From a virus (Duplodnaviria > Caudoviricetes), in IMG/VR virus record IMGVR_UViG_3300020473_000042, positions 1 through 52,330 of that record: 52,330 bases of DNA. One strand, 5' to 3'. Of the stretch, positions 1,630 to 52,330 are shown piece by piece. The notes below the pieces were generated by a model, which worked only from the letters and a program-made list of their open reading frames with translations, was not told the DNA's origin and did no database searches. The translations under genes and the position numbers were made by a program. Each line of letters starts with the position of its first letter. Within the stretch, counting starts at the first letter, position 1.

Positions 1630-1656
1630 AACTTTTTCCTTTTCTAAAAAAATATG

Positions 1657-1704: not shown

Positions 1705-1722
1705 GTAAAAAAGGAAAAAGTT

Positions 1723-18412: not shown

Positions 18413-18424
18413 ATTTTCTGTCCT

Positions 18425-39068: not shown

Positions 39069-42000
39069 TTAAGCTGCTTTATCTACCACTCGTTTTACAA
39101 AACCACCTTTATTTTTGTTTTCGCCACCTGTGGTAAAAAATAAATGATTTTTTGACCTATATACTGGTTCTTTATCTTTTGCAAATTTAGGCGTTTGTTT
39201 AACCCCTTTTGGATTGTAAAAGAATGTAGCTCCTTTTGTAAGGTCTGGTTCTGTAGGATCATTATTAAATATTTTTTCTGCTATAGATTTATATTTTAGA
39301 TACATTTCATTATCATCCATAGTGTTTACCATTACATTGAAGTTATTTAACCTTTTTTCAAAATCATCACTATGTTCTTTTGTACCAAAATCAGGTATTG
39401 TTGAAAACGCTCTTGGTTGCAAAATAACTTCCTTTAAACTATTTGGAAAACCTTTTTCACTAACTCTGTTTTTCATTACATGAAGTACAGCTCTCATACC
39501 ATCTTCACTAGGTAATTCACTTTCTTCTGATCTAGCTTCACCCATAGCCATTAAAACAGCCATGTCTATGTCTGGTATGTTAGAATAGGCGTTAAAATTT
39601 TCTAAAGCTTCTTTAAAATAAGGTCTTTCTTGAAGCGGTTGTTTTCTTCCAGGTATGGGAGGTGTTTGTGCCTGTTTTGCTCCATCAACAGGGCCAGCAT
39701 CTGCATACCCTTGCGGTGCTGAAAAACCTTGTTGTACTATCTTTCCAGTTGGGTCAACCATAGGAGGTTGCTGTGCTTGTTTTCTTGTGCGCTCCAATGC
39801 TTGCATTTGATTGTAAGAAGACTCTTGTGCCTGTGTTGTATCTGATTCCAACATAGCTTCTACTGTAGGTTGTTTTTGTTCGTTAGGGTTCATAACAAAG
39901 CCACCTTTTTGCATCATAGGTGCTTGAGGTGCTTGAGGTGCTTGAGCCATTTGTTGAGGTTGTTCTTCAGGCATAGGTTGCTGTTCTTGCATAGAAGGTT
40001 GTTTTTCTTCTTCTAGTCTTTTGCGTAATGCAAGACCTTCATCCCTTATCTTGTCTAGATACTTCTTACCGCCTCCAAAAAACGGCACTAGCACTTTAGG
40101 AATATGGTACTCGTAGTTGCTCACTTTTATTGGAACGTCATCTGTTGGATCTATGTCTGTTCCAGTTAATTCAATATTATTTTCCATAGCAAGTTTTATA
40201 GCTTCTCTGGCGTATCTGTTTAGTTGGTTTAAGCCTGTAAGAAGAACAGTCTCGTAAGGAAGAATGTAATCACCCTCATCTGCTTCTCTTGGTATGTCGT
40301 CCTGTACAGATTTTTGACCGCCTTGCTGTGGTTCTGCTGCTGGCGCATTTATTATACCCAGATTAGCCATGTCTGCTGGTGCGCCTTGCTGTGGCATAGG
40401 TGCTTGAGGTACTTCGCCTCCCTCTTGAAATGATATATCTGAAAAACCAGACCAATCTTCTGAAGGTGCGCCATCACTTGCAGCAGATGCATTATCTCCA
40501 GCAGATGCATCGTCATCGGACTGCCATTGTCCACCAGCTTCTTCACTTCCTTCTACTAATCCATAGTCAAAAGCTTTTGACATATCTTGAGTGCCTTCAG
40601 TGTAATCTCCGTAATAATCAAAAGCTTCTGCCATGTCTTGTTCAGGATCGTCTTGCCAACCTGCCCATCCTGCCATTGACCCCTGAGATGTTGCGAAAGG
40701 GTTGTATCGCTCAACTCCTTTTAAAGTAACCTTGTCGTCTAGTTGACCATCTGTAAAATCATAGTCATAAGTCCACGTTGGTAGTATTCCTATGCTTTGT
40801 TCATACCCTTTTTGGCTCATCATGCTTCTGGAACTATACTGTCCTCCAAGATCTGGATGTATAGAAATGCCCCCCTGAAGCATATCGTAATATTCACCAA
40901 CTCCTAAAAGATTTACTCCTTGATAATCAAAATCTTTTTCACTAAGAACATAATCCCGATCAAACAAGTTAGGATTTGGCTGCCATCCAAAATGTAGACT
41001 TTCACCATTGTCGCTGTTAGACGCACCGCCATATGCTTCTACAGCTTGATCAAATAACGGTTTTAAATTAGGATCGAACTGCCTGAAACTTGCTCTTCCA
41101 AACCCACCTCTTGCATCTATAGCTTGTTGTAAATTATTAAATCCTTCTTTTGTTGTCAGTGCTTGTTTAAAAGTGTCTTCATCACCAAACAACATTTCCC
41201 TGCCAAACTCATCTCTGTAGTTTCCGTTTGGTAAATATCCAGCAGGACCAATAGGCGTAGGATCATCAAAACCCAAACCATCTAAAATAGGAGACAAATA
41301 CTTTTTAAAAAAAGAATCTTCTCTTGCAGCTTCTCCAAATTCCCTATCTTCAAGATCTAAAGGATGGTAAGGTTTTCCAGTAAAAGGGTTAGCTTCCAGA
41401 CCGTCAAATGTTATTGCTTCTGTTCCTTCTCTCCAAAGTTCTAAAACTTTATCTGCAATTTCTTTTCCTTCTTTAGTTGAAATATCTCCAAACTCGCCTC
41501 TGTTGTACCATTCTTCCATTTGATCTGCAGAAGCTCCTGAAACATTGTAATACAAATCTTTTTTACCTGATTGTACATCTTTTATATTGCCGAACATATT
41601 TGAAGCTAGGCTTCCTACACTTGCTGGAGATCCTGATACAATTCCTGCTATGGCTCCAAGAATACCTCCAAAACCTATTTCTCCAGGAAAAGATATGGCT
41701 CCTGCTGAACCAGATAGATCATCTGCGTCTGCGCTAGTTTCAAGTTGTTCTGTAGTTATAGGTCTTCGTTGTTGAACAGCAAGAGAAGTTTCAGTAGCAG
41801 GAGCATCTACTGAGGCGGTAGCAGCAGCTTGTGTTTGCCCTTGTGCTGCAGCAGTTCTTCCTGCAAATCCGCTAAAAGGAGCTTGAGCAAAAGTTTTAGC
41901 ACCGCTTGGCAACAATCCAGATGTTATCCCTGCTCTGTAAAATGAAGGGGCTGTAACACCAGCAGGTATGTCTGGGAGCAACTCAGAAGATGTTAGACCT

Positions 42001-42170
42001 GCGCCTTCCTGTAATCTTCTAACTATTTCAGGCCAAGATAATTTTCTTTTGCCTCCTAAAGTTGTAACACCAACAGGAGCTATAGTTCCAGGAGTTATGG
42101 TAGTTCCTGTTTCTACACCTAATGCGCTTTCTAATTGTGTAGCTAAATTTTCAAGTGTTGTGTCTGCCAT
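39069..42170 (-). CDS. Large putative virion protein with C-terminal SleB/Hydrolase_2 cell-wall hydrolase domain
   Basis: MGEARSE..GMRAVLHVMKNRV..FPNSLKEVILQPRAFS..DLTKGATFFYNP..NHLFF; also DDIP...EGDYILP and repeated xxGGxV. Confidence 0.8.
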   Translation of the reverse strand: MADTTLENLATQLESALGVETGTTITPGTIAPVGVTTLGGKRKLSWPEIVRRLQEGAGLTSSELLPDIPAGVTAPSFYRAGITSGLLPSGAKTFAQAPFSGFAGRTAAAQGQTQAAATASVDAPATETSLAVQQRRPITTEQLETSADADDLSGSAGAISFPGEIGFGGILGAIAGIVSGSPASVGSLASNMFGNIKDVQSGKKDLYYNVSGASADQMEEWYNRGEFGDISTKEGKEIADKVLELWREGTEAITFDGLEANPFTGKPYHPLDLEDREFGEAAREDSFFKKYLSPILDGLGFDDPTPIGPAGYLPNGNYRDEFGREMLFGDEDTFKQALTTKEGFNNLQQAIDARGGFGRASFRQFDPNLKPLFDQAVEAYGGASNSDNGESLHFGWQPNPNLFDRDYVLSEKDFDYQGVNLLGVGEYYDMLQGGISIHPDLGGQYSSRSMMSQKGYEQSIGILPTWTYDYDFTDGQLDDKVTLKGVERYNPFATSQGSMAGWAGWQDDPEQDMAEAFDYYGDYTEGTQDMSKAFDYGLVEGSEEAGGQWQSDDDASAGDNASAASDGAPSEDWSGFSDISFQEGGEVPQAPMPQQGAPADMANLGIINAPAAEPQQGGQKSVQDDIPREADEGDYILPYETVLLTGLNQLNRYAREAIKLAMENNIELTGTDIDPTDDVPIKVSNYEYHIPKVLVPFFGGGKKYLDKIRDEGLALRKRLEEEKQPSMQEQQPMPEEQPQQMAQAPQAPQAPMMQKGGFVMNPNEQKQPTVEAMLESDTTQAQESSYNQMQALERTRKQAQQPPMVDPTGKIVQQGFSAPQGYADAGPVDGAKQAQTPPIPGRKQPLQERPYFKEALENFNAYSNIPDIDMAVLMAMGEARSEESELPSEDGMRAVLHVMKNRVSEKGFPNSLKEVILQPRAFSTIPDFGTKEHSDDFEKRLNNFNVMVNTMDDNEMYLKYKSIAEKIFNNDPTEPDLTKGATFFYNPKGVKQTPKFAKDKEPVYRSKNHLFFTTGGENKNKGGFVKRVVDKAA

Positions 42171-42396
42171 CCTTATGTGCCTTTATTGTAGCTTGCGTTG
42201 CATCTTTTAAATTAATTAAGATTTCCAGTAAAGCCAGCTTCCCCTGCAGTCGGCGCACTTCCAATTCCGATACCTCCACCACCAACTGCTGTCTCATCAT
42301 TTGGGCCAGTTCCTTCAGGTAACTCTCCAGTCCCTCCCATTCCAGTTGGCTGTTGGCTAGTGGCAGCAGCTTCTGCGCCTGTTCCTTGTTGATCAT
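42151..42396 (-). CDS. Small helical protein overprinted on the portal 3' end
   Basis: 81 aa, RRLQGKLALLE; AAAGGGG RBS; bridges portal to the next gene. Confidence 0.7.
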   Translation of the reverse strand: MINKEQAQKLLPLANSQLEWEGLESYLKELAQMMRQQLVVEVSELEVRRLQGKLALLEILINLKDATQATIKAHKDGRHNT

Positions 42397-44338
42397 TTGG
42401 CATTAACCCCTTTAACATTTCAGCAAAAATTGCTGCATCGCTCATATCGTTTACTAACTCATCAGGGTCCATATCTTGACTTATGGCAAGCTCCCTGATT
42501 AGGTTTGGTATCTTAATGAACGGTGCTAGCATCGGATTCGCAACTGTCTGGAGTAAAGCTGTTAATCGTTGTGTGCGTACTTCTTTTTGTATTACTGCGC
42601 TGGTTCCTTTAGGTTTAATCTCAAGATCACCTATCTTTTCTGGTGTTCTCTCGTTAAACTGCATGTTCCACTGAAAGAAAGACTCTCCTAGTGGCTTCAG
42701 TAAAAAGTCATCTATGTTCTTTATTACTGTCTTTACACTCAATCCTGCGCTGGACATTAACATGCTTAGTCCAGCAGCAGTACGTCCTGTTCCTGTAACG
42801 CCTGTCTGTCCGTGTACAATAGAGGGTATTCCTGTCTGTTCGTCTGCAAGCTGCCTTGCTTTGTCGAACATCTGTACATTTTCACCAGCAGTGCTAGGAA
42901 ACTTTATGCCGTTAACTGCAGTACCTGTAACACCAGACTGCCTCCTGAATATTTTTCCAGGATATACGTCCATTGTCTGTCCAGGTACAAGCTGAGTTTC
43001 GTCTATATCGAATACAAGATTACCAGCTAATGCTAGGTTATCTATTGCCATACGAATGTGACCATTCATCAGCATCTGGCTATCCTCCATGTTCTCAGCA
43101 ACACCTACACCAAATAGCTGGTAGGGGTTGAGTTCGTATGGAAAAGCCTGATAAGGTATTCTTGCAGGTATAAAAGGGTTAGCTACGAATCTGAGGATTT
43201 CGTTTCCTGAGATCCAGATGTTGACTTGGATTGCGTCACCTTGCTTAACTTCTCTTGGAGCTTCAATACCGATTTCTTCAGCAAACTTCGCATCCATTGT
43301 ACCCCAATACTCAAATATTTCAAAACGCCGTCCTTGATAATTCGGATCATCGTCATTAGCATAGAGAGTAGTTTCATAATACTTTTCTTCGTAATTTGGA
43401 CCACTTTGTAAAACATTTTCTATTGCCTCTTGGTTAAAGAATGGACGATTAGTAAGATCACGTACCTGCTCTCTGTTCATTCTGTGTCGCTGTATCACGT
43501 AATCTGCATCTTCCAGACTTGTAGCACTGGGGTCTGGATAAAAATCCCAACAGCTAACAGCTTCTACTCTAGGTACTGTTCTGTCGATAGGGCTGTATTG
43601 ACCGCCCTCCCAGTTGTGTATTGTTTTGTTATAATTAAACGGACCTTTTACTATTCCAGTTCCAAGCAAAGCACACTCGAATATAGAGTGTCTCAAAACA
43701 GTCACTGCATTAGTGTCTAGTAGCTGATCGTGTATGCAAGTTTCCATGTTTCTTGCTGCTTCTGCTGCTGGACTTATCTGTGGTTCGCCCATACGTGCAG
43801 GGCCAGAAGCCAGATTAGCACCTTCGTACTTGTCTTCTAGTCCTCCAAGTTCTGCTGCTTGCGGTCCTTGCTGCTGTTGCTGCATAGGTGTTGCTTGCAT
43901 AGCTCCTGGAAGTAGCTCCATGCCATCACCTTCAAACCCAACATCATCAGGAGAACCTTCTTGAACTGGAAATGGAGACAGGTGAGCATACTTGTCAATG
44001 CCTTCTGGCATAGGAGTCGCCTGAACAGATATAGGAAACTTATTGTTAGCAAAGAGTATATCTATAATTTGACCGTAAGCTGCTAGAACTTTAGTCTTGG
44101 TTATCTTGACAAAGACTTGACTGCGCTCGTTATCTCTGTACTGAGTTGTCGAGTCGTAGATACCACGATAATTCTTGTACGCTTTAAGCCAGCGTTCTTC
44201 ATCGCTTCTCCTTCCTGTCTCTGCATCAGAAAACCTAGCCTTAACAGATCCTATGACACTGTTATAGTCTTCACGCTTATCGTCTAAATTAATTAGCCCT
44301 TCTGTCTCTTCATCGTCTAGAAAAGATTGATCAGCCAT
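42212..44338 (-). CDS. Portal protein
   Basis: WLKAYKNYRG..RSQVFVKITKTKVLAAY..LGTGIVKGP..VSCWDFYPDP..RMAIDNLAL..RTAAGLSMLM; downstream of TerL. Confidence 0.92.
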   Translation of the reverse strand: MADQSFLDDEETEGLINLDDKREDYNSVIGSVKARFSDAETGRRSDEERWLKAYKNYRGIYDSTTQYRDNERSQVFVKITKTKVLAAYGQIIDILFANNKFPISVQATPMPEGIDKYAHLSPFPVQEGSPDDVGFEGDGMELLPGAMQATPMQQQQQGPQAAELGGLEDKYEGANLASGPARMGEPQISPAAEAARNMETCIHDQLLDTNAVTVLRHSIFECALLGTGIVKGPFNYNKTIHNWEGGQYSPIDRTVPRVEAVSCWDFYPDPSATSLEDADYVIQRHRMNREQVRDLTNRPFFNQEAIENVLQSGPNYEEKYYETTLYANDDDPNYQGRRFEIFEYWGTMDAKFAEEIGIEAPREVKQGDAIQVNIWISGNEILRFVANPFIPARIPYQAFPYELNPYQLFGVGVAENMEDSQMLMNGHIRMAIDNLALAGNLVFDIDETQLVPGQTMDVYPGKIFRRQSGVTGTAVNGIKFPSTAGENVQMFDKARQLADEQTGIPSIVHGQTGVTGTGRTAAGLSMLMSSAGLSVKTVIKNIDDFLLKPLGESFFQWNMQFNERTPEKIGDLEIKPKGTSAVIQKEVRTQRLTALLQTVANPMLAPFIKIPNLIRELAISQDMDPDELVNDMSDAAIFAEMLKGLMPNDQQGTGAEAAATSQQPTGMGGTGELPEGTGPNDETAVGGGGIGIGSAPTAGEAGFTGNLN

Positions 44339-44354
44339 GTTTTACTCTCTTTAG

Positions 44355-44591
44355 TTAGCCGTTGATCCCTTGTTGTTTATCAGCAGCCATAATCATAGCA
44401 GCTTGGCCCATATGCTTGTTACCTGATTCTGCAGGAGCATCTTCAGTCAACTTGCCTATGTCTATTTTAGTGCCGAACTCAAGTTTTTCCCTATACAGTG
44501 CAGACTCATTGCAATCGCTAAGTTCGCCTTGTTTTTTCATCTGGCCCATGATGTAACCAGATTTGTATGCTTGTGGATTACCGTATGGCAT
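44355..44591 (-). CDS. Small hypothetical protein upstream of portal
   Basis: 78 aa; AGGAGG RBS. Confidence 0.75.
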   Translation of the reverse strand: MPYGNPQAYKSGYIMGQMKKQGELSDCNESALYREKLEFGTKIDIGKLTEDAPAESGNKHMGQAAMIMAADKQQGING

Positions 44592-44626
44592 TGTAATACC
44601 CTCCTTTTGGGTTGTAGTGGTTAAAC

Positions 44627-46990
44627 TTATCTTGTTGTTGGAAATTCTTCAGAAGATTCACCTGTTCTTTCAAAGTAATCTTCGTATTCTTTTATAAAAC
44701 CTGTTCTTTTAGGTTGAAATTTGTCTTCTGTAAGCCCCATAGACACAGCTTCTCTTTCAGCAGTGTCTTGTCTTTTTAAAAAACCTTTCATTTCATCTGC
44801 ATATCGACTTGAAGCTTCTTTTTCTAAAAGCATTAATTCATCTTCTCTTGTTCTTGGTCTGGTAGTGTATTCTTCTTCTGTTGGAAATTCTTCTGCAGTT
44901 GGATCTGCTTTCGCCATGTTTGGGAAATATACTCCTCTGGGTACAGCATATTCAGTGTCTTCTTCAAATTTATCTGGTATTCCTCTTTCTGCTTCCATTC
45001 TTTGTTGCATAGCGTCAAACAGTTCAGGATCTTCTAAATCTTCAATAGGTCTTTCTCCTGCAGGTCCAGCTTCAGCAGCTTGAAAAGCTAACTCAATACC
45101 TGCTTCTCCTAACATTGCTTGAGGGGCAACTGCTGCTAGGGCCAAACCGCCTATTATTCTTTTACCAGCTTTAGATTTTAAAGCTTCTAGAGCCTCTTCA
45201 GATCCATCTTTTGCCAGATCTATTAATTTTCGTAATTTTTTATCAGCATCTTTATTTTTTGCATCTGCTTCGTTTAATATAGCTTGTTTTAGTTCGTCTT
45301 TATCTCCAGTTGCTCTTGCTTCATTTATTTGTCGTGTATTGTCAGCAGGAGGAGTATCTGATTCTATGTCCTCTCCTACAATAGACTGTCCTTTTCTCAG
45401 CCTATCTTTAATTCCTCCTCTGCCTCCCCCTGTCCTTGCACTGGATATAGCACCTCTTCTGACTAACTCATCAAACATGCCTTGAAATTTAGTAGCTAAA
45501 TCAGTTAACTGTCCCTTAAAATTAGCCATTCCCTCTTGAACAGTAGATGCTAAGTTGACAGCCATCCTACTAAAAGCATCGTAGTTAGGCATCTCTGTAA
45601 CGTCAGGTATCTTTCCTTCTGGGTGCGTAAGTCTGTTAGGATGATTTTCGTATCCAGGTTTTATTCCATCTTGTGAAAAAGTGTCTTCCTCAAAACCCAT
45701 ATTTGGAATAAGGCTTAGTGCATCTTGAGTTACTCTGCTTAATGAAGCTAATATTCTTCCAGAAGATAATCCTCTGCTGTCTATTGCTTCTGATACTTCT
45801 CCTACATAGTCTTCTTCGTTAATTCCAAATGCGCTTAAAAAAGCTCTTGGACTGATAAAGTCCGAATACCCTACTAATCTACTTTCTAAAGTTCTTAATG
45901 CTTGTTTTCCAAACTCTATTCTTTCACCAGAATTGATATACTTAGTTGCTTCATCTGTTCTTGCTCTTCCAGTTACCATCTTTCTTTCAATTAAAGTAAA
46001 ATCTCCTACCATAGACTCCATGTTGTTTCTTAAATATTTCATTAAAAAACCAGTTTCTTTAGGTTTAGTTCCTGCTAAATCTTTTTCAACTGTAATTCTG
46101 TGTTCATTTCCTAAATTTCTAGCTATGTCGTCTGCTATGTTATCAGTTATATTTGAACCATACGTACCATGACCTTTTGGAAAAAGTTTTCCATCTTTTT
46201 TTCTTTTAGTGTTAGGAGACTTTTCTCTTTCTTTAATAATCTGATTTAGAATTTCTCTTGAAACGTCACCAAAAATAACTGTAGTTTTGTACCCACCTTT
46301 TGTTTCAGGAATAGATAAAGTACCATTATTTAAGTCTATATCCTCTAAAGCTATTCTTCCCATTTCTTCAAGACGAAGACCTGTTGTATACTTTAATAAA
46401 CCAAACAATTTAGACATTCTGTCTACTTTAGTGTTTTCACTTAAAGATTTTATAAAAGCTTTTTGAAAGTTAGGAGGTAGATTTACAATATCTCTAGATC
46501 TTTTTTCTTGAAGATGAAAATAACTTTCTTTCAACTTACCTAAAGTATTTTGAAGTTTTTGTATTCCGTCTAAACCTGCATAATTACTTATTGACTTAAT
46601 ATAAGAAGCCATATCAGCTTTAGAGTAATTACTAAGACCTTGCTTTTCTAATAGTCCATCAGGCTTAAACAGTGCTTTTATAACACCTGCACTGTTTAGC
46701 TCTTTTAATGTTAAGTCTGAAGCTTGTACCAGCTTACCATCCCCAAGATCTATAGTAGTTTCTCTCAGTTTTGTAAGAACGCCCTTTAAAGCACTTGCTG
46801 CACCTCTTGAATAAGCACCACTTCGATTAGCAGTAGGATAAATCTCATTTCCATCTGCATCAAAAAGATCCTTGACCCCTCTTTCTTTCATACTCTGAAG
46901 AATAGCTTGCTCAAAGTTGCTATCAGGAGATATAGCTGCTTCTTGTGAAATATCTATTTCTGTAAGTAATTCTGTTACTTCGTCTGCCAT
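44627..46990 (-). CDS. 787-aa protein with a tyrosine-recombinase (integrase-family) catalytic domain and a long acidic C-terminal region
   Basis: TTGLR206LEEM..I..EDIDL..GTLSIPETKGG..LFP..K318YLR321..TGR342..TKY351; TAATG-coupled to TerL. Confidence 0.75.
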   Translation of the reverse strand: MADEVTELLTEIDISQEAAISPDSNFEQAILQSMKERGVKDLFDADGNEIYPTANRSGAYSRGAASALKGVLTKLRETTIDLGDGKLVQASDLTLKELNSAGVIKALFKPDGLLEKQGLSNYSKADMASYIKSISNYAGLDGIQKLQNTLGKLKESYFHLQEKRSRDIVNLPPNFQKAFIKSLSENTKVDRMSKLFGLLKYTTGLRLEEMGRIALEDIDLNNGTLSIPETKGGYKTTVIFGDVSREILNQIIKEREKSPNTKRKKDGKLFPKGHGTYGSNITDNIADDIARNLGNEHRITVEKDLAGTKPKETGFLMKYLRNNMESMVGDFTLIERKMVTGRARTDEATKYINSGERIEFGKQALRTLESRLVGYSDFISPRAFLSAFGINEEDYVGEVSEAIDSRGLSSGRILASLSRVTQDALSLIPNMGFEEDTFSQDGIKPGYENHPNRLTHPEGKIPDVTEMPNYDAFSRMAVNLASTVQEGMANFKGQLTDLATKFQGMFDELVRRGAISSARTGGGRGGIKDRLRKGQSIVGEDIESDTPPADNTRQINEARATGDKDELKQAILNEADAKNKDADKKLRKLIDLAKDGSEEALEALKSKAGKRIIGGLALAAVAPQAMLGEAGIELAFQAAEAGPAGERPIEDLEDPELFDAMQQRMEAERGIPDKFEEDTEYAVPRGVYFPNMAKADPTAEEFPTEEEYTTRPRTREDELMLLEKEASSRYADEMKGFLKRQDTAEREAVSMGLTEDKFQPKRTGFIKEYEDYFERTGESSEEFPTTR

Positions 46991-48633
46991 TAGTATCCAA
47001 ATACGCTATCTGCTGGTTGAAATGTATCTTTCTTTATCTGGTTAAATATGCTGTTCTGTGGTAAACCTGTTGGTCTAGTCATGCACATATATCTTAAAGC
47101 ATCGTAGGCGTGATCATCAGACTTGGTGTCTACATCCTCACTGTTAGTCTTAGACAAGGGTATCGTAGGTAGAGTCCTTATTAGGTTTGTACAGGTAGAG
47201 AATATCTTTAGTTTTGGTTCGTCTGTACGCTCGTCTATGGCTAATCTTCTGTGTAGCTCTATTTTTCCAGGTATTCTGTTTTTATCTGCTGGTATCCAAC
47301 GTACACCGTTGCGTATCATTGACTCAGCTATGCTCGGCCCTGTACCGTGTTTAGACCAACAAGCCCCATCCAGAACAGAAATCTGCATCAGGGGATCATT
47401 TTCCTCTAATGCGTTGATTATTCTTGCCAGAGTTTCGCCTGTGTATCCCTTGTCGTATAGTTCCCTGTATATAAAGATGTTTCCATCCCAATCTACAGCA
47501 CCCCAAAGTACGCAACTAGGACTACTATAGCCATAATCGGCTGCTCGTAGTCTAGGCCAGTTATATGGTACTTCAAACGGTTCAACGACATGTACAGACC
47601 TGTCAAACTCTGAGAATGCTGCACCATCTGCAACATCCCAATCCCCTTCTAGAAGTCTCCTGCGTTCTACTTCTGGCAGGGAAAGCAACATGGCTTCGTA
47701 TTCGCCACTTTCCATCAAAAACGGATTATCTGTTAACCTTGCAGGTATAAACCGCCTTTGGTACAGTGGTTCATCAGCGTGTTCTGGGTGATTAGGCCCA
47801 TAACGTAATACTTTACCACTGTCAATGTCTGTAGCCCAGAATGGTTCGTTAGGAATTGCAGGGTCTACAAACATTTTCTTTAACCACCAACCCCCTACGC
47901 CTCCAGGATTGGCAGAAGCTCTCATATACGTCTGGATCTCTGGATCAGTAGTACGTAGACGAGATCTAAGGTAGTTCCAGACATACGGCGTTGGGTATTG
48001 ACCTAACTCATCTACACCGATCCAAGTAAAACTCTGTCCTTGATACCTTGTAACGTCATTATCCTTGTCAACATAACTGAATAACGCTGTAGCACCGCTA
48101 GGAAACGACCAAGTATTCTTGGATTCTCGAAATACTGCACCTGGAAATGCCTTTGGATACAGCTTTCTTGACTGATCTACTAATTCTGTCAGTTCTGCCA
48201 GCGTCCTTCTCAGTAGTAACGCCCTGTGATTACCGTTAGAGGCGTAGCGTAGAAGGTCTACCAGCATTGCAAATGACTTACCGCCACCTGCTGCACCACC
48301 ATATAATACTTCTTTTTCTGGTGCTGCCAAGAAGTCAACCTGTGGACCCTTATTGGGTCTGAATACGACTTCTGTGTTCTCTTCTATTGATTCTCTTATA
48401 TCTTTAGGCAGTGAATCAATAAATTCTTTTGTTGTTGCTCCACCAGAACCAGCTAATTTCTGCCCATTCTTCTGTCTGGCGTGTGTTTCTTGTATGGTAT
48501 TGAGCTTTTTCTCTATAGAACGCTGCTTGTCTTTAGCTGCTTTTAGCTCTTTTCTTACTTCTCTCTTTCTCTTTTCTGTCCTTGAAAGATTATAACGCCC
48601 CTTTTCTCCAGGCTTCAGCTTTGGTCTTGCCAT
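46990..48633 (-). CDS. terL: Terminase large subunit
   Basis: Walker A YGGAAGGGKS; Walker B WIGVDE; ASANPGG; nuclease ADYGY and DHAYDALRY. Confidence 0.97.
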   Translation of the reverse strand: MARPKLKPGEKGRYNLSRTEKRKREVRKELKAAKDKQRSIEKKLNTIQETHARQKNGQKLAGSGGATTKEFIDSLPKDIRESIEENTEVVFRPNKGPQVDFLAAPEKEVLYGGAAGGGKSFAMLVDLLRYASNGNHRALLLRRTLAELTELVDQSRKLYPKAFPGAVFRESKNTWSFPSGATALFSYVDKDNDVTRYQGQSFTWIGVDELGQYPTPYVWNYLRSRLRTTDPEIQTYMRASANPGGVGGWWLKKMFVDPAIPNEPFWATDIDSGKVLRYGPNHPEHADEPLYQRRFIPARLTDNPFLMESGEYEAMLLSLPEVERRRLLEGDWDVADGAAFSEFDRSVHVVEPFEVPYNWPRLRAADYGYSSPSCVLWGAVDWDGNIFIYRELYDKGYTGETLARIINALEENDPLMQISVLDGACWSKHGTGPSIAESMIRNGVRWIPADKNRIPGKIELHRRLAIDERTDEPKLKIFSTCTNLIRTLPTIPLSKTNSEDVDTKSDDHAYDALRYMCMTRPTGLPQNSIFNQIKKDTFQPADSVFGY

Positions 48634-48816: not shown

Positions 48817-49119
48817 CTATGAATCCACAAACTTTGCCTTACGAACACCACCGCCATATGCGTATTTCTTGACGTAACCACCGCCAGCTTTGCTAATTTG
48901 TAGCTGCTGCCTACGTGCTTCATCTAGAATTTTTTGTAATGAATCTGCACTCATTTCATTTACACTTCTAGGTACAGGAATATTTAATTGGTTCATCCTA
49001 GAGACTATATCTGCTTTTCTTGCTGTCTCGTGATTATATATTCCTTTTCCTTGTGACATTCTTTCCAGTATTTCTGCTTCAGTATCTGGATCTATAACTT
49101 CACTAGCTTTGTCTGCCAT
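48817..49119 (-). CDS. Hypothetical protein with C-terminal GG motifs
   Basis: 100 aa ending KAGGGYVKKYAYGGGVRKAK; coupled to TerS. Confidence 0.75.
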   Translation of the reverse strand: MADKASEVIDPDTEAEILERMSQGKGIYNHETARKADIVSRMNQLNIPVPRSVNEMSADSLQKILDEARRQQLQISKAGGGYVKKYAYGGGVRKAKFVDS

Positions 49120-49538
49120 TACTCTGTCTCCTGATCTATAACGATCTCTTTTGGTTTATCTTTGGAGGGTAACATTACAATGCCATGCATTATCTGTCCC
49201 TCTACTTCTACTTGCTGTTTCTTTCCAAGACCAACCCTGTCAAGAACAGACTCTGCTGTTTTGATACGCATATCCATCTGGTTCAATGGCGTTGTACCGT
49301 CAGCATCTAAACCTTCTAATATTCTGTTAGCAGCCTTAACAGAGTTTGTTGCAAGCATACTTCTAGTGCGATCTATAATCTCGTCACGTAAAGAACGTGT
49401 TAACCAAGATCTAGATTGTTCTTTGTATCCTGCAGCAACAACGGCTTTCTTGACATGTCCCCCATTCGAGATGAGTTCTTCAAGAAAGCGTTCTTGTTTT
49501 TCTGTTAATTTTCGTTTCTGTGTGGCTGGCAAGCTCAT
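49119..49538 (-). CDS. terS: Terminase small subunit
   Basis: LTEKQERFL..AVVAAGY HTH; AESVLDRVGL; GIVMLPSK; upstream of TerL. Confidence 0.85.
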   Translation of the reverse strand: MSLPATQKRKLTEKQERFLEELISNGGHVKKAVVAAGYKEQSRSWLTRSLRDEIIDRTRSMLATNSVKAANRILEGLDADGTTPLNQMDMRIKTAESVLDRVGLGKKQQVEVEGQIMHGIVMLPSKDKPKEIVIDQETE

Positions 49539-49632
49539 TCTTTAGTTTCTTTATTTTTTCATTTACTACTATTTGGTATTTTAATCTTGGAAAATGTATA
49601 TGTTCTGTCAGTTTGTTTAACACTTGCTCCAT
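49480..49632 (-). CDS. Possible 50-aa leader ORF overlapping the terS start
   Basis: GGGAG RBS then MEQVLNKLTEHIHFPRLKY...; terS itself lacks an obvious RBS. Confidence 0.3.
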   Translation of the reverse strand: MEQVLNKLTEHIHFPRLKYQIVVNEKIKKLKNELASHTETKINRKTRTLS

Positions 49633-49689
49633 TTTCTCCCACAAACAGAAGCGTACCCTCCCTGTTCGCTGTATATTGTACTCACTTTG

Positions 49690-49913
49690 TTAAAGTTAAG
49701 TTTGCGTAGGCAATGCGCTCGTTCCCTCTAGCGTGTAACGGAGTTACGTCTTACGAACTGCGTACTCTAACGTTTAATGATAAAAAGGAAGTCCCTGCGT
49801 CTGTTGCCTACGCAAAACACTCTAAAACCATGAAGTGTGGATTATAAGTTCGTCCTTCAATATAATAATATTGTACTTGGTTGAATCTGAACTATAATTT
49901 TATCCACTGTTAA
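49690..49913 (-). ncRNA. Candidate structured RNA / long leader upstream of terS
   Basis: Perfect 13-bp inverted repeat 49701-49713/49804-49816 with extension and internal stems; second stem domain 49837-49907; starts just after a consensus promoter. Confidence 0.55.
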
Positions 49914-49919
49914 TATTAC

Positions 49920-49995
49920 ATTATAGTGCTGTAGAACGTTTTGTCAAGTAAAAAATTAAAATAATGCTTGACAGATTGCTCAGAAGTATTATAAT
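49920..49995. promoter_or_regulatory. Back-to-back consensus sigma70 promoters
   Basis: Minus: TTGACA 49947-49942, 16 bp, TATAAT 49925-49920. Plus: TTGACA 49968-49973, 16 bp, TATAAT 49990-49995. A/T tract between them. Confidence 0.8.
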
Positions 49996-50336
49996 GGTGT
50001 ATAACACCTACGGGCGGTATAGTATGTATATGTACTATATTGTTTATTGTCAAGAAATAGCCCATTATAACCTAAAAAACCCAAAAAAAATAAAAAATAT
50101 GGCAGCAGTGTATATAGAGTTATACCTACCCCCTAGTGGCCCATGCGTGGGGTTGCTCTTTTGTTCCGCACATCTTCTCGCAGAGGAATTGTATTGGTCT
50201 AAATAGTTGTGTAAGGGTTAAATATACGCCCTTGTGATAAAGTTCTCTCGTCACACGTACACACACGTGTTGAATACTATCTGACAATTTTATTTGCTGT
50301 GTTGAGCGCAGGGTGGCGTGTCCATTTAGACAAAGA

Positions 50337-50373
50337 AATAACCCAGACTATCCAGTGGACAGAATGGGTTATT
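50337..50373 (-). terminator. Intrinsic terminator-like hairpin
   Basis: AATAACCCA...TGGGTTATT with an inner stem; followed by UCUUU on the minus strand. Confidence 0.55.
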
Positions 50374-50389
50374 GTGTTATCAGCCTAGT

Positions 50390-50479
50390 TTATGCGAATT
50401 GAGTTAGGACTGTGAAAGATTCGTTAGTTATAACTGCGATAGTGTAGATTGTTATAATAGCTATTATTGCTTTAAGCAT
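50390..50479 (-). CDS. Small hydrophobic peptide (29 aa), not in ORF track
   Basis: MLKAIIAIITIYTIAVITNESFTVLTQFA; GAGG RBS; followed by a terminator-like hairpin. Confidence 0.45.
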   Translation of the reverse strand: MLKAIIAIITIYTIAVITNESFTVLTQFA

Positions 50480-50534
50480 GATATTAACCTCATTGTTTAC
50501 ATACTAAACGTAAATAAATGAGATATTATTGGAT

Positions 50535-50567
50535 AAAAAAGAACCCCGAACTATAAAGAACGGGGCT
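50535..50567 (-). terminator. Intrinsic terminator of the early minus-strand genes
   Basis: GCCCCG...CGGGGU stem followed by UCUUUUUU. Confidence 0.7.
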
Positions 50568-50656
50568 AAGTTTTAGGGAGGTATGCAGAATATTAGAGCG
50601 AATAAGCTATAAAAAACCCGCTTGCCATTACACTCATTGCGATCAATACGAACTCT

Positions 50657-50944
50657 TCAGGCTTTATCATGTTGTACCTTCACTTTCATACGAGATCCTT
50701 GCTGAATTGAACGTGGCGGTTGGTCTGTGAACTCACAAGACTTATTCTTAACAGTGCTAATATCATAGTGGCAACGAATAACTGTTATAGTCACCTTGTC
50801 GTCAACTATAGCGTCTGGATCGTCAGGGATGCCCAACTTGTCAAGAAAGTCTGCCCAATCATTGCACATAATATGAGAGTTCTCGAAGTCATCCTTGGAC
50901 AGTGTGATTAGACGGCCAGAGATTGGTGTTGATTGTTTCGCCAT
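50657..50944 (-). CDS. Hypothetical early protein
   Basis: 95 aa; GAGGAG RBS. Confidence 0.65.
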   Translation of the reverse strand: MAKQSTPISGRLITLSKDDFENSHIMCNDWADFLDKLGIPDDPDAIVDDKVTITVIRCHYDISTVKNKSCEFTDQPPRSIQQGSRMKVKVQHDKA

Positions 50945-50946
50945 GA

Positions 50947-51129
50947 TTATATCTCCTCTACAAATACTTTATCTTGGCAAGACTGGCACAAGCCCGAAAT
51001 ACCATATTCACGATGCGATAACTCATCCTTGAAAAAGACTGCATCCTTTTTACATGAGACACAGCGATCAATTGGTAAGTTATGCTTATCAGCAATCACT
51101 TGCATTAGTTCTAATAAATCAGTCGCCAT
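50947..51129 (-). CDS. Small Zn-binding early protein
   Basis: CVSC...FKDELSHREYGISGLCQSCQDKVF; GAGG RBS. Confidence 0.75.
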   Translation of the reverse strand: MATDLLELMQVIADKHNLPIDRCVSCKKDAVFFKDELSHREYGISGLCQSCQDKVFVEEI

Positions 51130-51141
51130 TGTTTTATACCT

Positions 51142-51336
51142 CTATTTTGTTGTTGATGGTGTAAGGTTATAATTCCTTTTGGTTTGAATTGCAAGACAAA
51201 ACCTGTCCCAGTCGAAGCTTGCGTTATCTTCTTGGAAATATGAACATAAATCAGAGACAAGCGAGCTGTCCCAGTTTACGTTATTTTTCGCCAGTATATG
51301 AGCGAACCTGATATAATTAGCACGTGACATTGACAT
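51142..51336 (-). CDS. Small early protein
   Basis: MSRANYIRFAHIL...FQEDNASFDWDRF; AGGAGG RBS. Confidence 0.75.
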   Translation of the reverse strand: MSMSRANYIRFAHILAKNNVNWDSSLVSDLCSYFQEDNASFDWDRFCLAIQTKRNYNLTPSTTK

Positions 51337-51338
51337 GA

Positions 51339-51575
51339 TTAAACCTCCTTTTTCTTTAAACGGCTGATTGGTTTACCATCAACAGTGTCAACTAATTGAC
51401 CGTTGTGGTTGTAAAACGTGATTGTGTCCAATGTGCCATTATCATTAGTGATGTCAATTTTCAGAATGTAGATCAGATCGTCACCAACAGAACTAGACGG
51501 ATACTCATTGGACTCAAACTCGATACTTTCAACGTGGTGGAAATGATGCGAACTTCCCATAATGTTATACCTCAT
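51339..51575 (-). CDS. Hypothetical early protein
   Basis: 78-aa ORF; the true start may be the internal ATG after GAGG. Confidence 0.6.
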   Translation of the reverse strand: MRYNIMGSSHHFHHVESIEFESNEYPSSSVGDDLIYILKIDITNDNGTLDTITFYNHNGQLVDTVDGKPISRLKKKEV

Positions 51576-51589
51576 AATTGTTAAAGTTT

Positions 51590-51619
51590 AGGGCGGTATC
51601 TCTACCGCCCTTTATTGTT
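51590..51619. terminator. GC-rich stem-loop with its U-tract on the plus strand
   Basis: AGGGCGGTA-TCTC-TACCGCCCT followed by TTATTGTT. Confidence 0.55.
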
Positions 51620-51697
51620 AACCGAAAAATACCATTAAAGCAACAATTATTGCAATAATAACGCCAAGCTTATATAAGCCGATTATTGCTTCATACA

Positions 51698-52330
51698 TTA
51701 TGCGCTTAAAAGCTCTTTAGATTTTGCCAACGCAATAGCTTTAGTATCTCGACCAACGTCACCATAGAATGCTTTGTTTAGTCGATTGTCAGCACCATGA
51801 TCTCGCACTGGTTTATGATCGGCCATGTAGGTGACAGTATTGAAAGCACCCCAGAGCGTACCTTTAGCACTTGACATGTCCCAACCATGATTGATTGACA
51901 AGTTAGGCTCTGACAACAATTCCTTGTCAGCGTCTATCTCTTCTATTGTCTTACCTGACACTAGAGCCTCGACTTGCTCTTTAAGCTTGGCAATCTCAGC
52001 GTCTTTTGTTTCCTTGCGCTTGCTATTCTCAGGATTGAACTCTTGACCTCTAAAATATGCCATTGCTTTTCTTACTGCTTCTGATCTGACAATAACATTG
52101 TTATCAGTTACTCGTTCTTTACCGCCGAACACTGATTGAAAAAACTCTATTTCTTCTTCACCAGTAAGAACCTTTTTTGCCATTGCTTTAGCTAGCTCTT
52201 CAAACTCGCCGAAGTTTTTGCTGGATATTCCCAACGCCACTTTTAAGGCTTCACGATCAAATACGGCTCGATGGTTATGGGTAACAATGTCGTCAGCACT
52301 CTCCATAGCCAGACGCATAGTATTGGCGCA
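51698..52330 (-). CDS. DUF932/DUF945-like protein, N-terminus beyond window edge
   Basis: SAKGTLWGAFNTVTYMADH...RLNKAFYG...KAIAL signature; frame open to the window end. Confidence 0.8.
   Translation of the reverse strand, partial: CANTMRLAMESADDIVTHNHRAVFDREALKVALGISSKNFGEFEELAKAMAKKVLTGEEEIEFFQSVFGGKERVTDNNVIVRSEAVRKAMAYFRGQEFNPENSKRKETKDAEIAKLKEQVEALVSGKTIEEIDADKELLSEPNLSINHGWDMSSAKGTLWGAFNTVTYMADHKPVRDHGADNRLNKAFYGDVGRDTKAIALAKSKELLSA

What the first reader, a model, noticed from the sequence alone, without database searches (positions are those of the whole stretch)
44627..46990. Tyrosine-recombinase domain in a large late protein between terminase and portal
Seen: box I (TTGLR206), the catalytic-Lys region (ETKGG), LFP, K318-x-x-R321 in place of HxxR, G-R342 in place of GH, and Tyr351 at the canonical +9 position. 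About 430 aa of charged, low-complexity sequence follows, resembling internal virion proteins. The gene is translationally coupled to terL in the late operon, and no repressor or excisionase is recognisable. Known: KxxR variants occur in protelomerases and type IB topoisomerases. Inference: not an ordinary integrase, but possibly a packaged/ejected or packaging-associated enzyme that circularises the genome, resolves concatemers or termini, or relaxes DNA. It could also be a catalytically dead DNA-binding derivative.
Basis: partly seen in the sequence, partly recalled or inferred. Interest (0 to 1): 0.85.

Follow-up and report, generated by a model that had tools for sequence, protein, structure and literature searches.

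The report
Hypervariable tyrosine recombinase beside phage terminase
A marine phage carries, between its DNA-packaging and portal genes, a real but very unusual tyrosine recombinase with a long tail, and related phages hold wildly different versions of it at the same spot.

Summary
ORF 44627-46990 (-), 787 aa, overlaps the terL stop by one base (TAATG). It passes Pfam Phage_integrase, and its first 470 residues model as a two-domain tyrosine recombinase closest to Xer, lambda Int, Tn1549 Int and Cre. Arg206, Lys231, Arg321, Arg342 and Tyr351 are invariant in 7 of 7 relatives that are only about 20% identical. Lys318 is not conserved.

The window is an HMO-2011-type marine podovirus. The new result is about context. 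In close relatives (TerL 80-99% identical), every contig that continues past terL has a large ORF at this position, followed by a 77-85 aa ORF and then portal. These proteins are exchangeable cassettes: TerL can be 99-100% identical while they are about 20% identical. DNA similarity stops at the gene's first codons and resumes at its stop codon. dN/dS is 0.5-0.6, against 0.05-0.09 for TerL.

The slot is empty in 11 of 44 more distant relatives and in cultured isolates, so the gene is accessory. No attP, tRNA fragment, palindrome, prophage copy or second integrase was found.

Best reading: an active, fast-evolving site-specific recombinase made from the packaging operon, possibly delivered in the virion. 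Packaging, substrate and activity are untested. A protelomerase, topoisomerase IB or essential packaging role is disfavoured.

The parts
44627..46990 (-). Slot gene: 787-aa tyrosine-recombinase-domain protein with a long C-terminal tail (P0001)
   Evidence: ORF list and translation; PF00589 38.3 bits; it is the only PF00589 match in the six-frame search of the whole record
46496..46813 (-). Residues ~60-165: helical N-terminal domain that aligns with the core-binding domains of Xer/Int/Cre
   Evidence: The model ranges aligned to two-domain recombinases start at residue ~60; pLDDT 58-77 over 61-130; hhalign of group A against group B covers residues 69-334
45701..46495 (-). Residues ~166-430: catalytic domain. 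Codons: R206 46373-46375, K231 46298-46300, R321 46028-46030, R342 45965-45967, Y351 45938-45940
   Evidence: Pfam and PDB profile alignments cover box I and the Lys hairpin; catalytic-core matches include lambda Int 1ae9 at Z 10.8, rmsd 3.1 over 150 residues; the five residues are 7 of 7 conserved
44630..45700 (-). Residues 431-787: fast-evolving, charged, mostly helical tail
   Evidence: Composition; AlphaFold2 mean pLDDT 44.6, long helices; dN/dS of the tail is 0.49-1.06 in three close pairs of relatives
45041..45160 (-). Residues 611-650: G/A-rich hydrophobic segment; comparable segments occur in slot proteins of other groups
   Evidence: It holds the hydropathy maximum of the protein, 1.45 at 612-630. 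It aligns with the LAIGAATTAIG-type segments of L017, L029 and L030. Similar segments are seen in L099, L106, L110 and L117
44663..44836 (-). Residues 719-776: conserved terminal module (long helix plus the F-x-K-E-Y-E-D-Y-F helix)
   Evidence: It is the best-modelled part of the tail, pLDDT about 70. It is conserved in P0003, L021, L017, P0011 and P0005 whatever the N-terminal type
46990..48633 (-). terL; its stop overlaps the slot gene's ATG
   Evidence: PF03237 and phrog_979 at 3.3e-59; 50% identity to TerL of HTVC033P, CRP-345 and HMO-2011; junction sequence
44355..44591 (-). 78-aa ORF between the slot gene and portal. It has a strong AAGGAGG ribosome-binding site and is conserved in all relatives, including those with an empty slot
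   Evidence: A 77-85 aa ORF is found in the close relatives and a 67-79 aa ORF in the empty-slot loci
42212..44338 (-). Portal protein (SU10-type)
   Evidence: PF23899 at 7.6e-31; phrog_332 and phrog_1216
49119..49538 (-). Small terminase-like gene, first gene of the operon
   Evidence: phrog_51 at 6.2e-8
49920..49947 (-). Perfect sigma-70 consensus promoter (12 of 12) facing terS-terL-slot-portal. No terminator-like site lies between it and the slot gene
   Evidence: This is a consensus match only, not shown to function

Best explanation
The ORF encodes a genuine two-domain tyrosine recombinase (residues ~60-430). It keeps the nucleophile Tyr351 and Arg206, Lys231 and Arg321, and it has Arg342 in place of the second histidine. 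This domain is fused to a ~360-residue fast-evolving helical tail that ends in a G/A-rich hydrophobic segment and a conserved acidic-aromatic helix. The gene is one allele of a hypervariable, exchangeable cassette at a fixed slot (terL | X | small ORF | portal) in most HMO-2011-type marine podoviruses. Most likely it is a catalytically competent site-specific DNA breaking-and-rejoining enzyme, translated together with terminase from the packaging operon, with an accessory rather than essential job. My favoured mechanism is an integrase- or cyclase-type recombinase whose tail docks it to the procapsid or portal, so that it enters the next cell together with the genome. Shown: the fold, the conserved residues, the synteny, the cassette behaviour, the accessory status and relaxed but real purifying selection. 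Inferred: activity (about 0.7), action on phage DNA by integration or circularisation (about 0.4), and virion delivery (about 0.3).
For: Fold and family. Catalytic residues are 7 of 7 in group A. R, K, R, GH and Y are also kept in groups B, C and D of slot proteins. The 900-1078 aa slot proteins L096, L099, L105 and L106 have a fully canonical catalytic domain, PF00589 at 6e-21 to 2e-30.

Synteny: of 30 contigs with TerL 80-99% identical, 24 continue past terL, and all 24 have an ORF starting within 9 nt of the last TerL codon. Fifteen of these ORFs are complete (650-856 aa). The other 6 contigs end at terL. Of 44 more distant loci where both terL and portal were found, 33 have a gap of at least 1.3 kb holding a large ORF. 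PF00589 is the only Pfam family hit by more than 2 of 47 such proteins: 17 of 47 at E<=0.05.

Cassette behaviour: nucleotide identity to relatives ends at 46966-46990 and resumes at 44592-44635. Pairs with TerL 99-100% identical have slot proteins about 20% identical. The Spearman correlation between TerL identity and N-domain identity is 0.06 over 105 pairs.

Selection: dN/dS is 0.36-0.48 for the recombinase domain, against 0.05-0.09 for TerL and 0.06 for portal.

Operon: the TAATG overlap with terL; a consensus promoter upstream of terS with no terminator in between.

Modular tail: tail modules are shared between proteins with different N-terminal domains. L005 and P0010 are 92% identical over 218 aa, L029 and L030 are 83% over 122 aa, and L021 and P0003 are 39% over 310 aa.

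No other integrase-family gene is present in the window or in three 99-100% complete relatives.

Weak: contigs from an RNA library, without mismatches, cover parts of the gene and bridge the terL/slot junction at 46857-47073. DNA carry-over in that library cannot be excluded.
Against: No recombination site was found. There is no tRNA and no tRNA-like Rfam match at E<=1. In 16 cassettes no lox-like inverted repeat exceeds shuffled controls: best 10-11 of 13, shuffled maxima 11-12. The conserved flanks cannot hold an allele-specific site, because they are shared by unrelated alleles.

No integrated copy was found in the species-representative bacterial genomes with four pattern-based scans. These scans reach close relatives only.

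The slot is empty in 11 of 44 relatives, in a complete genome (G006) and in the isolates HMO-2011, CRP-1 and CRP-345. Whatever the protein does is therefore dispensable.

Nothing measured here shows the protein in virions. The tail model is of low confidence (pLDDT 44.6) and its hydrophobic segment falls below a usual transmembrane threshold. The first His of HxxR is absent and variable, and the second is Arg. Activity of such a set has not been tested.
Confidence: 0.4

Rival explanations
1. It is an ordinary cytoplasmic integrase of a temperate or pseudolysogenic phage. The slot is simply where this lineage keeps its int gene, the alleles differ because they target different attB sites, and the tail has nothing to do with the virion.
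For: Integrase family and fold. The gene is accessory, present or absent among relatives. Its module-like exchange and extreme divergence resemble int cassettes. It is the only integrase-family gene in the window and in three complete relatives. Some HMO-2011-type phages are temperate and carry a tyrosine integrase (PMC9038755, section 17 read).
Against: In the described temperate HMO-2011-type phages, int lies upstream of the replication module, not in the packaging operon (PMC9038755). The gene is coupled to terL. The 360-750 aa tails are conserved as an architecture. No attP, tRNA match or prophage copy was found. No repressor or excisionase was hit among the 33 window ORFs scanned against PHROGs; not every small ORF was scanned. 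dN/dS is about 0.4-0.6.
Confidence: 0.25
2. It is a conflict effector. On this reading, a fast-evolving DNA-cleaving or DNA-trapping enzyme, or a decoy, acts on host or rival-phage DNA in anti-defence or superinfection competition. It could be anchored by its hydrophobic segment or injected.
For: It is one of a few hypervariable islands in genomes that are otherwise 83-97% identical. In G001 against G003 the other islands lie in the post-portal protein and in the tail-fibre or giant-ORF region (gene content). dN/dS is 6-10 times that of TerL. It is dispensable. No cognate site was found in the phage itself.
Against: Wherever a domain is recognisable it is always a tyrosine recombinase, never a varied payload: 17 of 47 proteins, with no other family above 2. 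I know of no precedent for a tyrosine recombinase acting as an anti-defence or exclusion effector (from recall). No PADLOC or defence-library scan was run.
Confidence: 0.15
3. It is a catalytically dead DNA-binding derivative with a structural or regulatory role, like the recombinase-fold repressors of SPbeta-type phages.
For: Recombinase-fold regulators YopR, MrpR and SroF appear among the fold matches at Z 7.4-8.2. The HxxR histidine is missing and the second histidine is replaced.
Against: R206, K231, R321, R342 and Y351 are invariant across relatives at about 20% identity. The equivalent set is kept in the other slot groups. Active recombinases score higher, Z 10-12.5.
Confidence: 0.08
4. 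It is a protelomerase- or topoisomerase-IB-type enzyme, or an essential packaging-linked resolvase of concatemers or termini.
For: Its size (600-1000 aa) and long C-terminal extension recall telomere resolvases (from recall). P0001 itself has KxxR. It lies next to the terminase.
Against: K318 is not conserved. The window has no large palindrome: the longest close inverted repeat has 21-nt arms 59 nt apart, at 1626-1726, far from the gene. No protelomerase appears in the 50 rows shown, and topo IB scores only Z 7.2-7.5. Empty-slot genomes, one of them complete, package DNA without it.
Confidence: 0.05

Closest known systems
Xer / lambda-Int / Tn1549-Int / Cre-type tyrosine recombinases (Pfam PF00589)
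   Same: A two-domain fold of core-binding plus catalytic domain, with Z 9-12.5 to XerA, Tn1549 Int, XerH, lambda Int and Cre. The box I Arg, the hairpin Lys, the box II Arg and a Tyr nine residues after the G-(H/R) position are present.
   Different: The first His is absent and variable, and the second His is Arg. A 360-aa tail follows where these enzymes end. The gene lies inside the terS-terL-portal operon. No att, dif or lox-like site was found.
Tyrosine integrases of temperate HMO-2011-type phages such as CRP-3
   Same: Same phage group and same enzyme superfamily, and likewise accessory (PMC9038755, section 17 read).
   Different: Those int genes lie upstream of the replication module and were recognised by standard annotation. 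The paper reports no lysogeny genes in subgroups IV-X. Its supplementary tables could not be read, so whether slot genes were listed there as orthogroups is unknown.
P1 Cre (cyclisation recombinase)
   Same: A phage tyrosine recombinase whose role is to circularise an incoming terminally redundant genome and to resolve multimers; this role is recalled, not tested here. Cre is among the fold matches at Z about 9.
   Different: Cre is 343 aa without a tail, has a defined loxP site, and is not in a late packaging operon (from recall). No lox-like site was found here.
Poxvirus type IB topoisomerase
   Same: An enzyme with a tyrosine-recombinase-type catalytic domain that is carried inside virions (from recall). 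Smallpox topoisomerase 3igc matches at Z 7.5.
   Different: The fold match is weaker than to the recombinases. It has no core-binding-like N-domain of this type, it comes from a eukaryotic virus, and packaging is not shown here.
Recombinase-fold repressors YopR / MrpR (SPbeta) and SroF (phi3T)
   Same: Phage proteins with the tyrosine-recombinase fold used for something other than integration (PDB titles, Z 7.4-8.2).
   Different: This family keeps the catalytic Arg/Lys/Arg/Arg/Tyr set, lies in a packaging operon, and has a long tail.
Portal-adjacent minor head proteins with variable domains (SPP1 gp7 / MuF family)
   Same: Large proteins encoded next to the portal gene, with a conserved virion-association part and variable other parts (from recall).
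   Different: There is no sequence or Pfam relation. Here the enzymatic domain is always a tyrosine recombinase and sits at the N-terminus. Virion association is not shown.

Membership tests
Tyrosine recombinase superfamily (PF00589) | Significant match to the family profile | tested here: met
   38.3 bits against a cut-off of 27.1, covering profile positions 20-113 of 172 only; 41.2 bits in the six-frame search
Tyrosine recombinase superfamily (PF00589) | Catalytic-domain fold, with an N-terminal core-binding domain in Xer/Int/Cre types | tested here: met
   AlphaFold2 model with pLDDT 80-93 over most of 170-260 and 360-410. XerA Z 12.5 over 232 residues; lambda Int core Z 10.8 at rmsd 3.1
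Tyrosine recombinase superfamily (PF00589) | Catalytic set R-K-H-R-(H/W)-Y | tested here: inconclusive
   R206, K231, R321 and Y351 are present and 7 of 7 conserved. The first His position is K/R/S/Q. The second is an invariant Arg. Whether this set is active was not tested
Tyrosine recombinase superfamily (PF00589) | Covalent 3'-phosphotyrosyl intermediate and strand exchange | not testable with these tools
   Needs biochemistry
Phage integrase (functional class) | attP next to int that matches a host attB, often a tRNA gene | tested here: inconclusive
   No tRNA, no tRNA-like match, no inverted-repeat core above chance. The host genome is unknown
Phage integrase (functional class) | Integrated prophage copies in host genomes | tested here: inconclusive
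   Four pattern-based scans of species-representative genomes found no slot-bearing prophage. These scans have low reach
Phage integrase (functional class) | Accompanying repressor or excisionase, and early or independent expression | tested here: inconclusive
   No such PHROG hit among the 33 ORFs scanned; small ORFs were not all scanned. The gene overlaps the terL stop
Protelomerase (TelN/TelK/ResT) | Large palindromic telomere-resolution site in the genome | tested here: not met
   No large palindrome in 52 kb. The best close inverted repeat has 21-nt arms 59 nt apart, at 1626-1726
Protelomerase (TelN/TelK/ResT) | Fold closest to TelK/TelA | tested here: inconclusive
   None among the 50 rows shown. 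The list does not exclude them
Type IB topoisomerase | Fold and R-K-R-H-Y set, with Lys at the position of the HxxR histidine | tested here: inconclusive
   Topo IB chains score Z 7.2-7.5, below the recombinases. Lys318 is not conserved
Catalytically inactive recombinase-fold regulators (YopR/MrpR/SroF) | Loss of catalytic residues | tested here: not met
   The five key residues are invariant in 7 of 7. That loss of these residues defines this class is recalled
Internal virion / ejection proteins | Presence in purified virions | not testable with these tools
   No proteomics are available for a slot-bearing phage. The cultured isolates lack the gene

The most novel reading that the evidence does not exclude
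HMO-2011-type marine podoviruses load a catalytically active tyrosine recombinase into the capsid through its C-terminal tail and inject it with the genome. On this reading, integration, circularisation or an attack on foreign DNA needs no early gene expression, and the enzyme is swapped among near-identical phages as a hypervariable cassette under arms-race-like selection.
Probability: 0.25. Interest if true: 0.85.

Novelty: new variant of a known kind. Interest (0 to 1): 0.66.

Why it matters
HMO-2011-type phages are described as one of the dominant marine phage groups (PMC9038755, abstract and section 17 read). Most subgroups are reported there to have no lysogeny genes.

This work shows that most metagenomic members carry a tyrosine-recombinase-domain protein in the packaging operon. 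Many versions are too divergent for routine annotation: only 1 of 18 close-relative slot proteins passes the Pfam cut-off.

If the protein is an integrase, the life-style calls for a large share of marine phages need revisiting. If it is virion-delivered, I know of no phage precedent for a packaged recombinase (from recall). Either way, the slot is a sharply bounded diversity hot spot beside two of the most conserved phage genes. That makes it easy to amplify from conserved flanks and to study as a marker of phage-host or phage-phage conflict.

Four full-text searches found no paper describing a tyrosine recombinase between terL and portal. That is not proof that none exists.

Tried and rejected
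Complex prediction of the tail (residues 611-787, alignment A5) with the portal (A6): no answer, score 0.00. This is neither for nor against binding.

Protein Atlas search with residues 400-787: best feature score 0.82 and structure TM <=0.25, so nothing usable.

Fold of the tail (residues 400-787): pLDDT 44.6. It was not taken to a fold search because the model is too poor.

tblastn of P0001, of P0010 and of the L005 slot protein against 50,697 phage records: no match.

Word-based homologue searches with P0001, with alignment A2 and with the tail region found only P0002 and P0003.

The search for related loci:
- With A2 it failed because no stretch was conserved enough, so single proteins were used instead.
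- P0001 in viral contigs gave nothing.
- A1 in metagenome contigs gave one 95%-identical C-terminal fragment, L130.

Scans for lox-like inverted repeats inside 16 cassettes: not above shuffled controls.

Rfam at E<=1: only two sub-threshold matches, neither in the gene.

Laying contigs of four runs:
- There were no places where many molecules begin or end.
- One X2 joint (41150 to 47016) rests on 21 letters and was disregarded.
- Loose ends near 47040 and 44592 fit variant cassettes but were not followed.
- The RNA run has no cover over 49476-52330 and 40000-42059, which proves nothing.

Complementary distribution of the slot gene and a canonical int: rejected. The complete empty-slot genome G006 has no PF00589 gene either.

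Supplementary files of papers were not available.
Full report
**What the window is.** The window is a 52,330-bp IMG/VR virus record, 94% complete and linear. Its large terminase is about 50% identical to those of Pelagibacter phage HTVC033P, Roseobacter phages CRP-345 and CRP-1, and Puniceispirillum phage HMO-2011. The rest of the genome fits that group. It has a DNA polymerase, a primase/helicase, a Gp2.5-like ssDNA-binding protein, a Cas4-type exonuclease and a ribonucleotide reductase on the + strand. On the - strand it has terS, terL, an SU10-type portal, the major head protein, tail and tail-fibre genes and a holin. It is therefore an HMO-2011-type marine podovirus.

**The observation.** ORF 44627-46990 (-) gives 787 aa.
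- Its ATG shares one base with the terL stop codon, TAATG.
- Thirty-five bases after its stop, a strong AAGGAGG site precedes a 78-aa ORF, and the portal gene follows.
- Pfam Phage_integrase is passed: E 1.5e-9, 38.3 bits against 27.1. The match covers only the first half of the domain, residues 189-289.
- PHROG integrase families agree.
- It is the only PF00589 match in the record in six frames.

**Fold.** An AlphaFold2 model of residues 1-470, built on a 7-row alignment, has mean pLDDT 63.4. Residues 1-62 are disordered. Confidence is good, with most 10-residue blocks at 80-93, over 170-260 and 360-410.
- Foldseek's best matches are all tyrosine recombinases: XerA 4a8e and 5hxy, lambda Int, and the Brujita integrase.
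- The VIA second look gives XerA Z 12.5 (232 residues), Tn1549 integrase Z 11.9-12.3, XerH Z 11.3, lambda Int catalytic core Z 10.8 (rmsd 3.1 over 150 residues) and Cre about 9.
- Many of these alignments start near residue 60, so an N-terminal core-binding-like domain is included.
- Topoisomerase IB chains (3igc, 2b9s) score Z 7.2-7.5. The recombinase-fold repressors YopR, MrpR and SroF score Z 7.4-8.2.
- No protelomerase is among the 50 rows shown. This does not exclude one.
- A sequence profile of seven family members finds five PDB sequences at E<=0.01, all tyrosine recombinases, with IntI4 best at 4.2e-8. It aligns the box I Arg and the hairpin Lys to theirs.

**Conservation of the active site.** Sequence relatives are few.
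- The 5.8-billion-protein index gave one 99% copy (P0002) and one protein at 36% identity with 98% coverage (P0003).
- The exhaustive search of 1.84 billion representatives gave 11 proteins at E<=0.001. Three of these (P0007, P0008, P0010) align through the whole catalytic domain.
- Two further relatives, L110 and L117, came from phage contigs.
- Across these seven sequences, which fall to about 20% identity, R206, K231, R321, R342 and Y351 are 7 of 7. G341 is 6 of 7. Position 318 reads K,R,K,S,K,K,Q.

**The gene position is conserved but the gene is not.** A scan of viral contigs with the window's TerL returned 30 loci with TerL 80-99% identical.
- Twenty-four of them continue beyond terL. 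In all 24 an ORF starts within 9 nt of the last TerL codon.
- Fifteen of these ORFs are complete, at 650-856 aa, and nine run off the contig.
- The remaining six contigs end in terL or within 96 nt after it.
- Where sequence continues, a 77-85 aa ORF and then the portal follow. This holds for 12 loci, plus L005.
- Yet P0001 has detectable BLAST similarity to only one of these 24 proteins, the truncated L019.

All-against-all BLASTP sorts the slot proteins into at least six groups. Profile comparison links them:
- Group A (the window's) to group B at 92.6% probability over residues 69-334.
- B to C at 98.8%.
- B to D at 99.4% and C to D at 98.9%.
- A to the L005 protein at 99.7%, through the tail only.
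- L009's truncated protein is linked to none of them.

Pfam sees PF00589 at E<=0.1 in 6 of 18 of these proteins, and above the cut-off in only one, L013. Alignments of groups B, C and D nevertheless show a conserved box I Arg, a hairpin Lys, a box II Arg, a G-H and a downstream Tyr.

**A sharply bounded cassette.** Nucleotide similarity between the window and its relatives ends at 46966-46990, the first codons of the gene. It resumes at 44592-44635, the stop codon region.
- Contig L009 is 98.3-98.4% identical to the window from 50213 to 46983 and then carries an unrelated slot protein.
- Among 15 loci (105 pairs), the last 450 residues of TerL are on average 87.7% identical. The first 400 and last 150 residues of the slot protein average about 25% in a global alignment.
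- Pairs with TerL 99-100% identical have slot proteins about 20% identical.
- TerL identity does not predict N-domain identity (Spearman 0.06, p 0.53). It predicts tail identity weakly (0.48). The pairs are not independent.
- Two complete relatives, G001 and G003, are 83-97% identical over most of their length. They have a handful of unalignable islands, and the slot is one of them.
- The other islands lie inside the large post-portal protein and in the distal structural region. In the window that region holds a tail-fibre-like protein and two giant unannotated ORFs. This assignment rests on gene order only.

**Selection.** In three close pairs the slot gene has dN/dS of 0.49-0.64. The recombinase domain gives 0.36-0.48 and the tail 0.49-1.06. 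TerL gives 0.05-0.09 and the portal 0.06. The gene is constrained, but far less than its neighbours.

**Wider distribution.** A TerL profile returned 80 loci, of which some are re-fetches.
- Of 44 new loci with TerL 59-77% identical in which the portal was also found, 33 have a gap of at least 1.3 kb occupied by a large open frame of 338-1078 aa.
- The other 11 have a gap under 500 bp that holds only the small ORF.
- Pfam on 47 of these slot proteins finds PF00589 in 17 at E<=0.05 (best 2e-30). No other family is found in more than two.
- The 900-1078 aa proteins L096, L099, L105 and L106 have a full, canonical catalytic domain near the N-terminus (6e-21 to 2e-30; L101 1.1e-7). About 700 residues of unknown sequence follow.
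- L106 shows textbook motifs: G-L-R, H-x-x-R-H, and G-H with Tyr at +9.
- Ten shorter slot proteins (319-537 aa) have no PF00589 hit.
- Local HMMs of groups A-D detect 23 of 54 slot proteins. Four of the 23 are re-fetches of the training contigs.
- Cultured relatives lack the gene. In HMO-2011, CRP-1 and CRP-345 the portal starts 11 nt after terL. HTVC033P has four small ORFs there. phiM6 has phoH and other genes.
- A MAG contig with TerL 69% identical (L039) has 313 bp between terL and portal.

**The tail.** Residues 431-787 are 35% charged. The protein's hydropathy maximum lies in a G/A-rich segment at 612-630. Its value, 1.45, is below a usual transmembrane threshold.
- The AlphaFold2 model is poor (pLDDT 44.6), with long helices. 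The best part, about 70, is residues ~719-776.
- Alignment shows the G/A-rich segment, a following E-D...E-L-L motif, an E-x-E-A-x-x-R-Y motif and the terminal F-x-x-E-Y-x-x-Y-F helix. These recur in proteins whose N-terminal domains belong to different groups.
- Tails are swapped. L005 and P0010 share 92% over the last 218 residues with unrelated N-termini. L029 and L030 share 83% over 122 residues. L021 and P0003 share 39% over 310 residues.
- Comparable G/A-rich segments sit about 100-250 residues before the C-terminus in L099, L106, L110 and L117.
- The architecture, a recombinase domain followed by a long variable linker, a hydrophobic segment and a charged end, is thus the family's hallmark.

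**What the gene is not linked to.**
- There is no tRNA gene and no tRNA-like Rfam match at E<=1.
- There is no large palindrome.
- In 16 cassettes no 13-nt inverted repeat with a 5-9 nt spacer exceeds shuffled sequence.
- The window, three 99-100% complete relatives (G001-G003) and a complete empty-slot genome (G006) have no other PF00589 gene. There is therefore neither a second integrase nor a compensating one.
- Four pattern-based scans of species-representative bacterial genomes found no slot-bearing prophage. The six TerL relatives found there lack the gene. These scans reach only close relatives, so absence is weak evidence.

**Expression.**
- A perfect sigma-70 consensus promoter at 49947-49920 (-) faces terS. 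No terminator-like site lies between it and the slot gene.
- The stretch is held by marine metagenome runs from 10 studies.
- In an independent DNA run of 2020 (X11), three contigs cover 44709-47024 without a single difference.
- In an RNA library (X17), contigs without differences cover 44991-45454, bridge the terL/slot junction at 46857-47073, and cover parts of terL, the small ORF and the portal. The tool warns that DNA can be present in such libraries, so this is only a hint of transcription.

**Interpretation.** Several points are shown:
- The protein has a real tyrosine-recombinase fold.
- Its catalytic residues are conserved despite extreme divergence.
- It occupies a fixed position in the packaging operon.
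- It is exchanged as a cassette.
- It is under relaxed but real constraint.
- It is dispensable.

These facts argue against a dead derivative and against an essential packaging or telomere function. They fit an accessory, catalytically competent site-specific recombinase. Two features separate it from a routine integrase: its translation with terminase, and a conserved tail architecture with modules that move independently of the enzyme domain.

The reading I favour is that the tail ties the enzyme to the assembling capsid and the enzyme travels with the DNA, where it could integrate or circularise the genome. I put this at about 0.3 for delivery and 0.4 for action on phage DNA. It is inference only. 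An ordinary integrase (0.25) and a conflict effector (0.15) remain serious rivals.

The 49.9-50.3 kb region is unlikely to be the substrate, because L009 keeps it while carrying an unrelated allele. If there is an allele-specific site, it should lie inside the cassette. This recalls integrases whose attP lies within their own gene, which is a recalled precedent, not tested here.

**Literature.** The ISME J 2022 survey of HMO-2011-type phages (PMC9038755; passages and section 17 read) places tyrosine integrases upstream of the replication module in subgroups I-III. It reports no lysogeny genes in subgroups IV-X and does not mention a gene between terL and portal in the text read. Its supplementary tables could not be consulted. 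The phiCbK paper (PMC3556154, one passage read) shows that lytic phages can carry small tyrosine recombinases presumed to resolve multimers. A pelagiphage preprint (10.1101/2019.12.14.876532, passages read) describes finding integrases and tRNA-matching att sites in environmental relatives of another phage group. Four searches found nothing on a recombinase in this position.

Noticed in passing
window 49539-50656: This is a 1.1-kb non-coding region upstream of terS. It holds two perfect (12 of 12) divergent sigma-70 consensus promoters at 49920-49947 (-) and 49968-49995 (+), and a terminator-like hairpin at 50135-50157 (+). That is compatible with a ~170-nt + strand RNA. A sub-threshold Rfam suhB/mmgR match lies at 50528-50600 (-), E 0.24.
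   Followed up: partly
window 39069-42170 (-): A 1033-aa protein sits just after the portal, with a Q/P/E-rich middle and a C-terminal cell-wall hydrolase domain (PF07486, 4.7e-14). It looks like an internal or ejection protein carrying a lysin. Its middle part is another unalignable island between the close relatives G001 and G003.
   Followed up: partly
window 12800-21679 (-): Two giant ORFs (1870 aa and 1084 aa) have no PHROG match. They lie in the part of the genome that does not align between the near-identical relatives G001 and G003, so they are probably host-recognition genes.
   Followed up: no
window 44355-44591 (-): The 78-aa ORF between the slot gene and the portal is conserved in every relative, including the 11 loci with an empty slot (67-79 aa there). 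It has no Pfam or PHROG match.
   Followed up: partly
L079, L080, L086, L088, L095, L102, L103, L104, L072, L112 (slot ORFs): Ten shorter slot proteins (319-537 aa) in more distant relatives show no PF00589 or other convincing Pfam domain. One of them (L102) matches the tail HMM weakly. They may be tail-only or unrelated occupants of the slot.
   Followed up: partly
window 1-148 and 51698-52330: ORFs run off both ends of the record, and the completeness estimate is 94%. About 3 kb of early-region sequence may therefore be missing, just where described HMO-2011-type integrases lie (PMC9038755).
   Followed up: partly
window 1626-1726: A 21-nt inverted repeat (95% complementary, 59 nt apart) sits at the divergence point between the - strand small early ORFs and the + strand replication module.
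   Followed up: no
window 1723-2355 (+): The first gene of the replication arm matches a DNA methyltransferase PHROG (phrog_11619, 1.7e-36).
   Followed up: no
L040 5539-6081; L008 2980-6829: In other TerL relatives the terL-portal junction holds other cargo. A MAG contig has a 180-aa Cys-rich ORF there. Sinorhizobium phage phiM6 has phoH, five small ORFs and an SGNH hydrolase. The junction is thus a general insertion hot spot.
   Followed up: no
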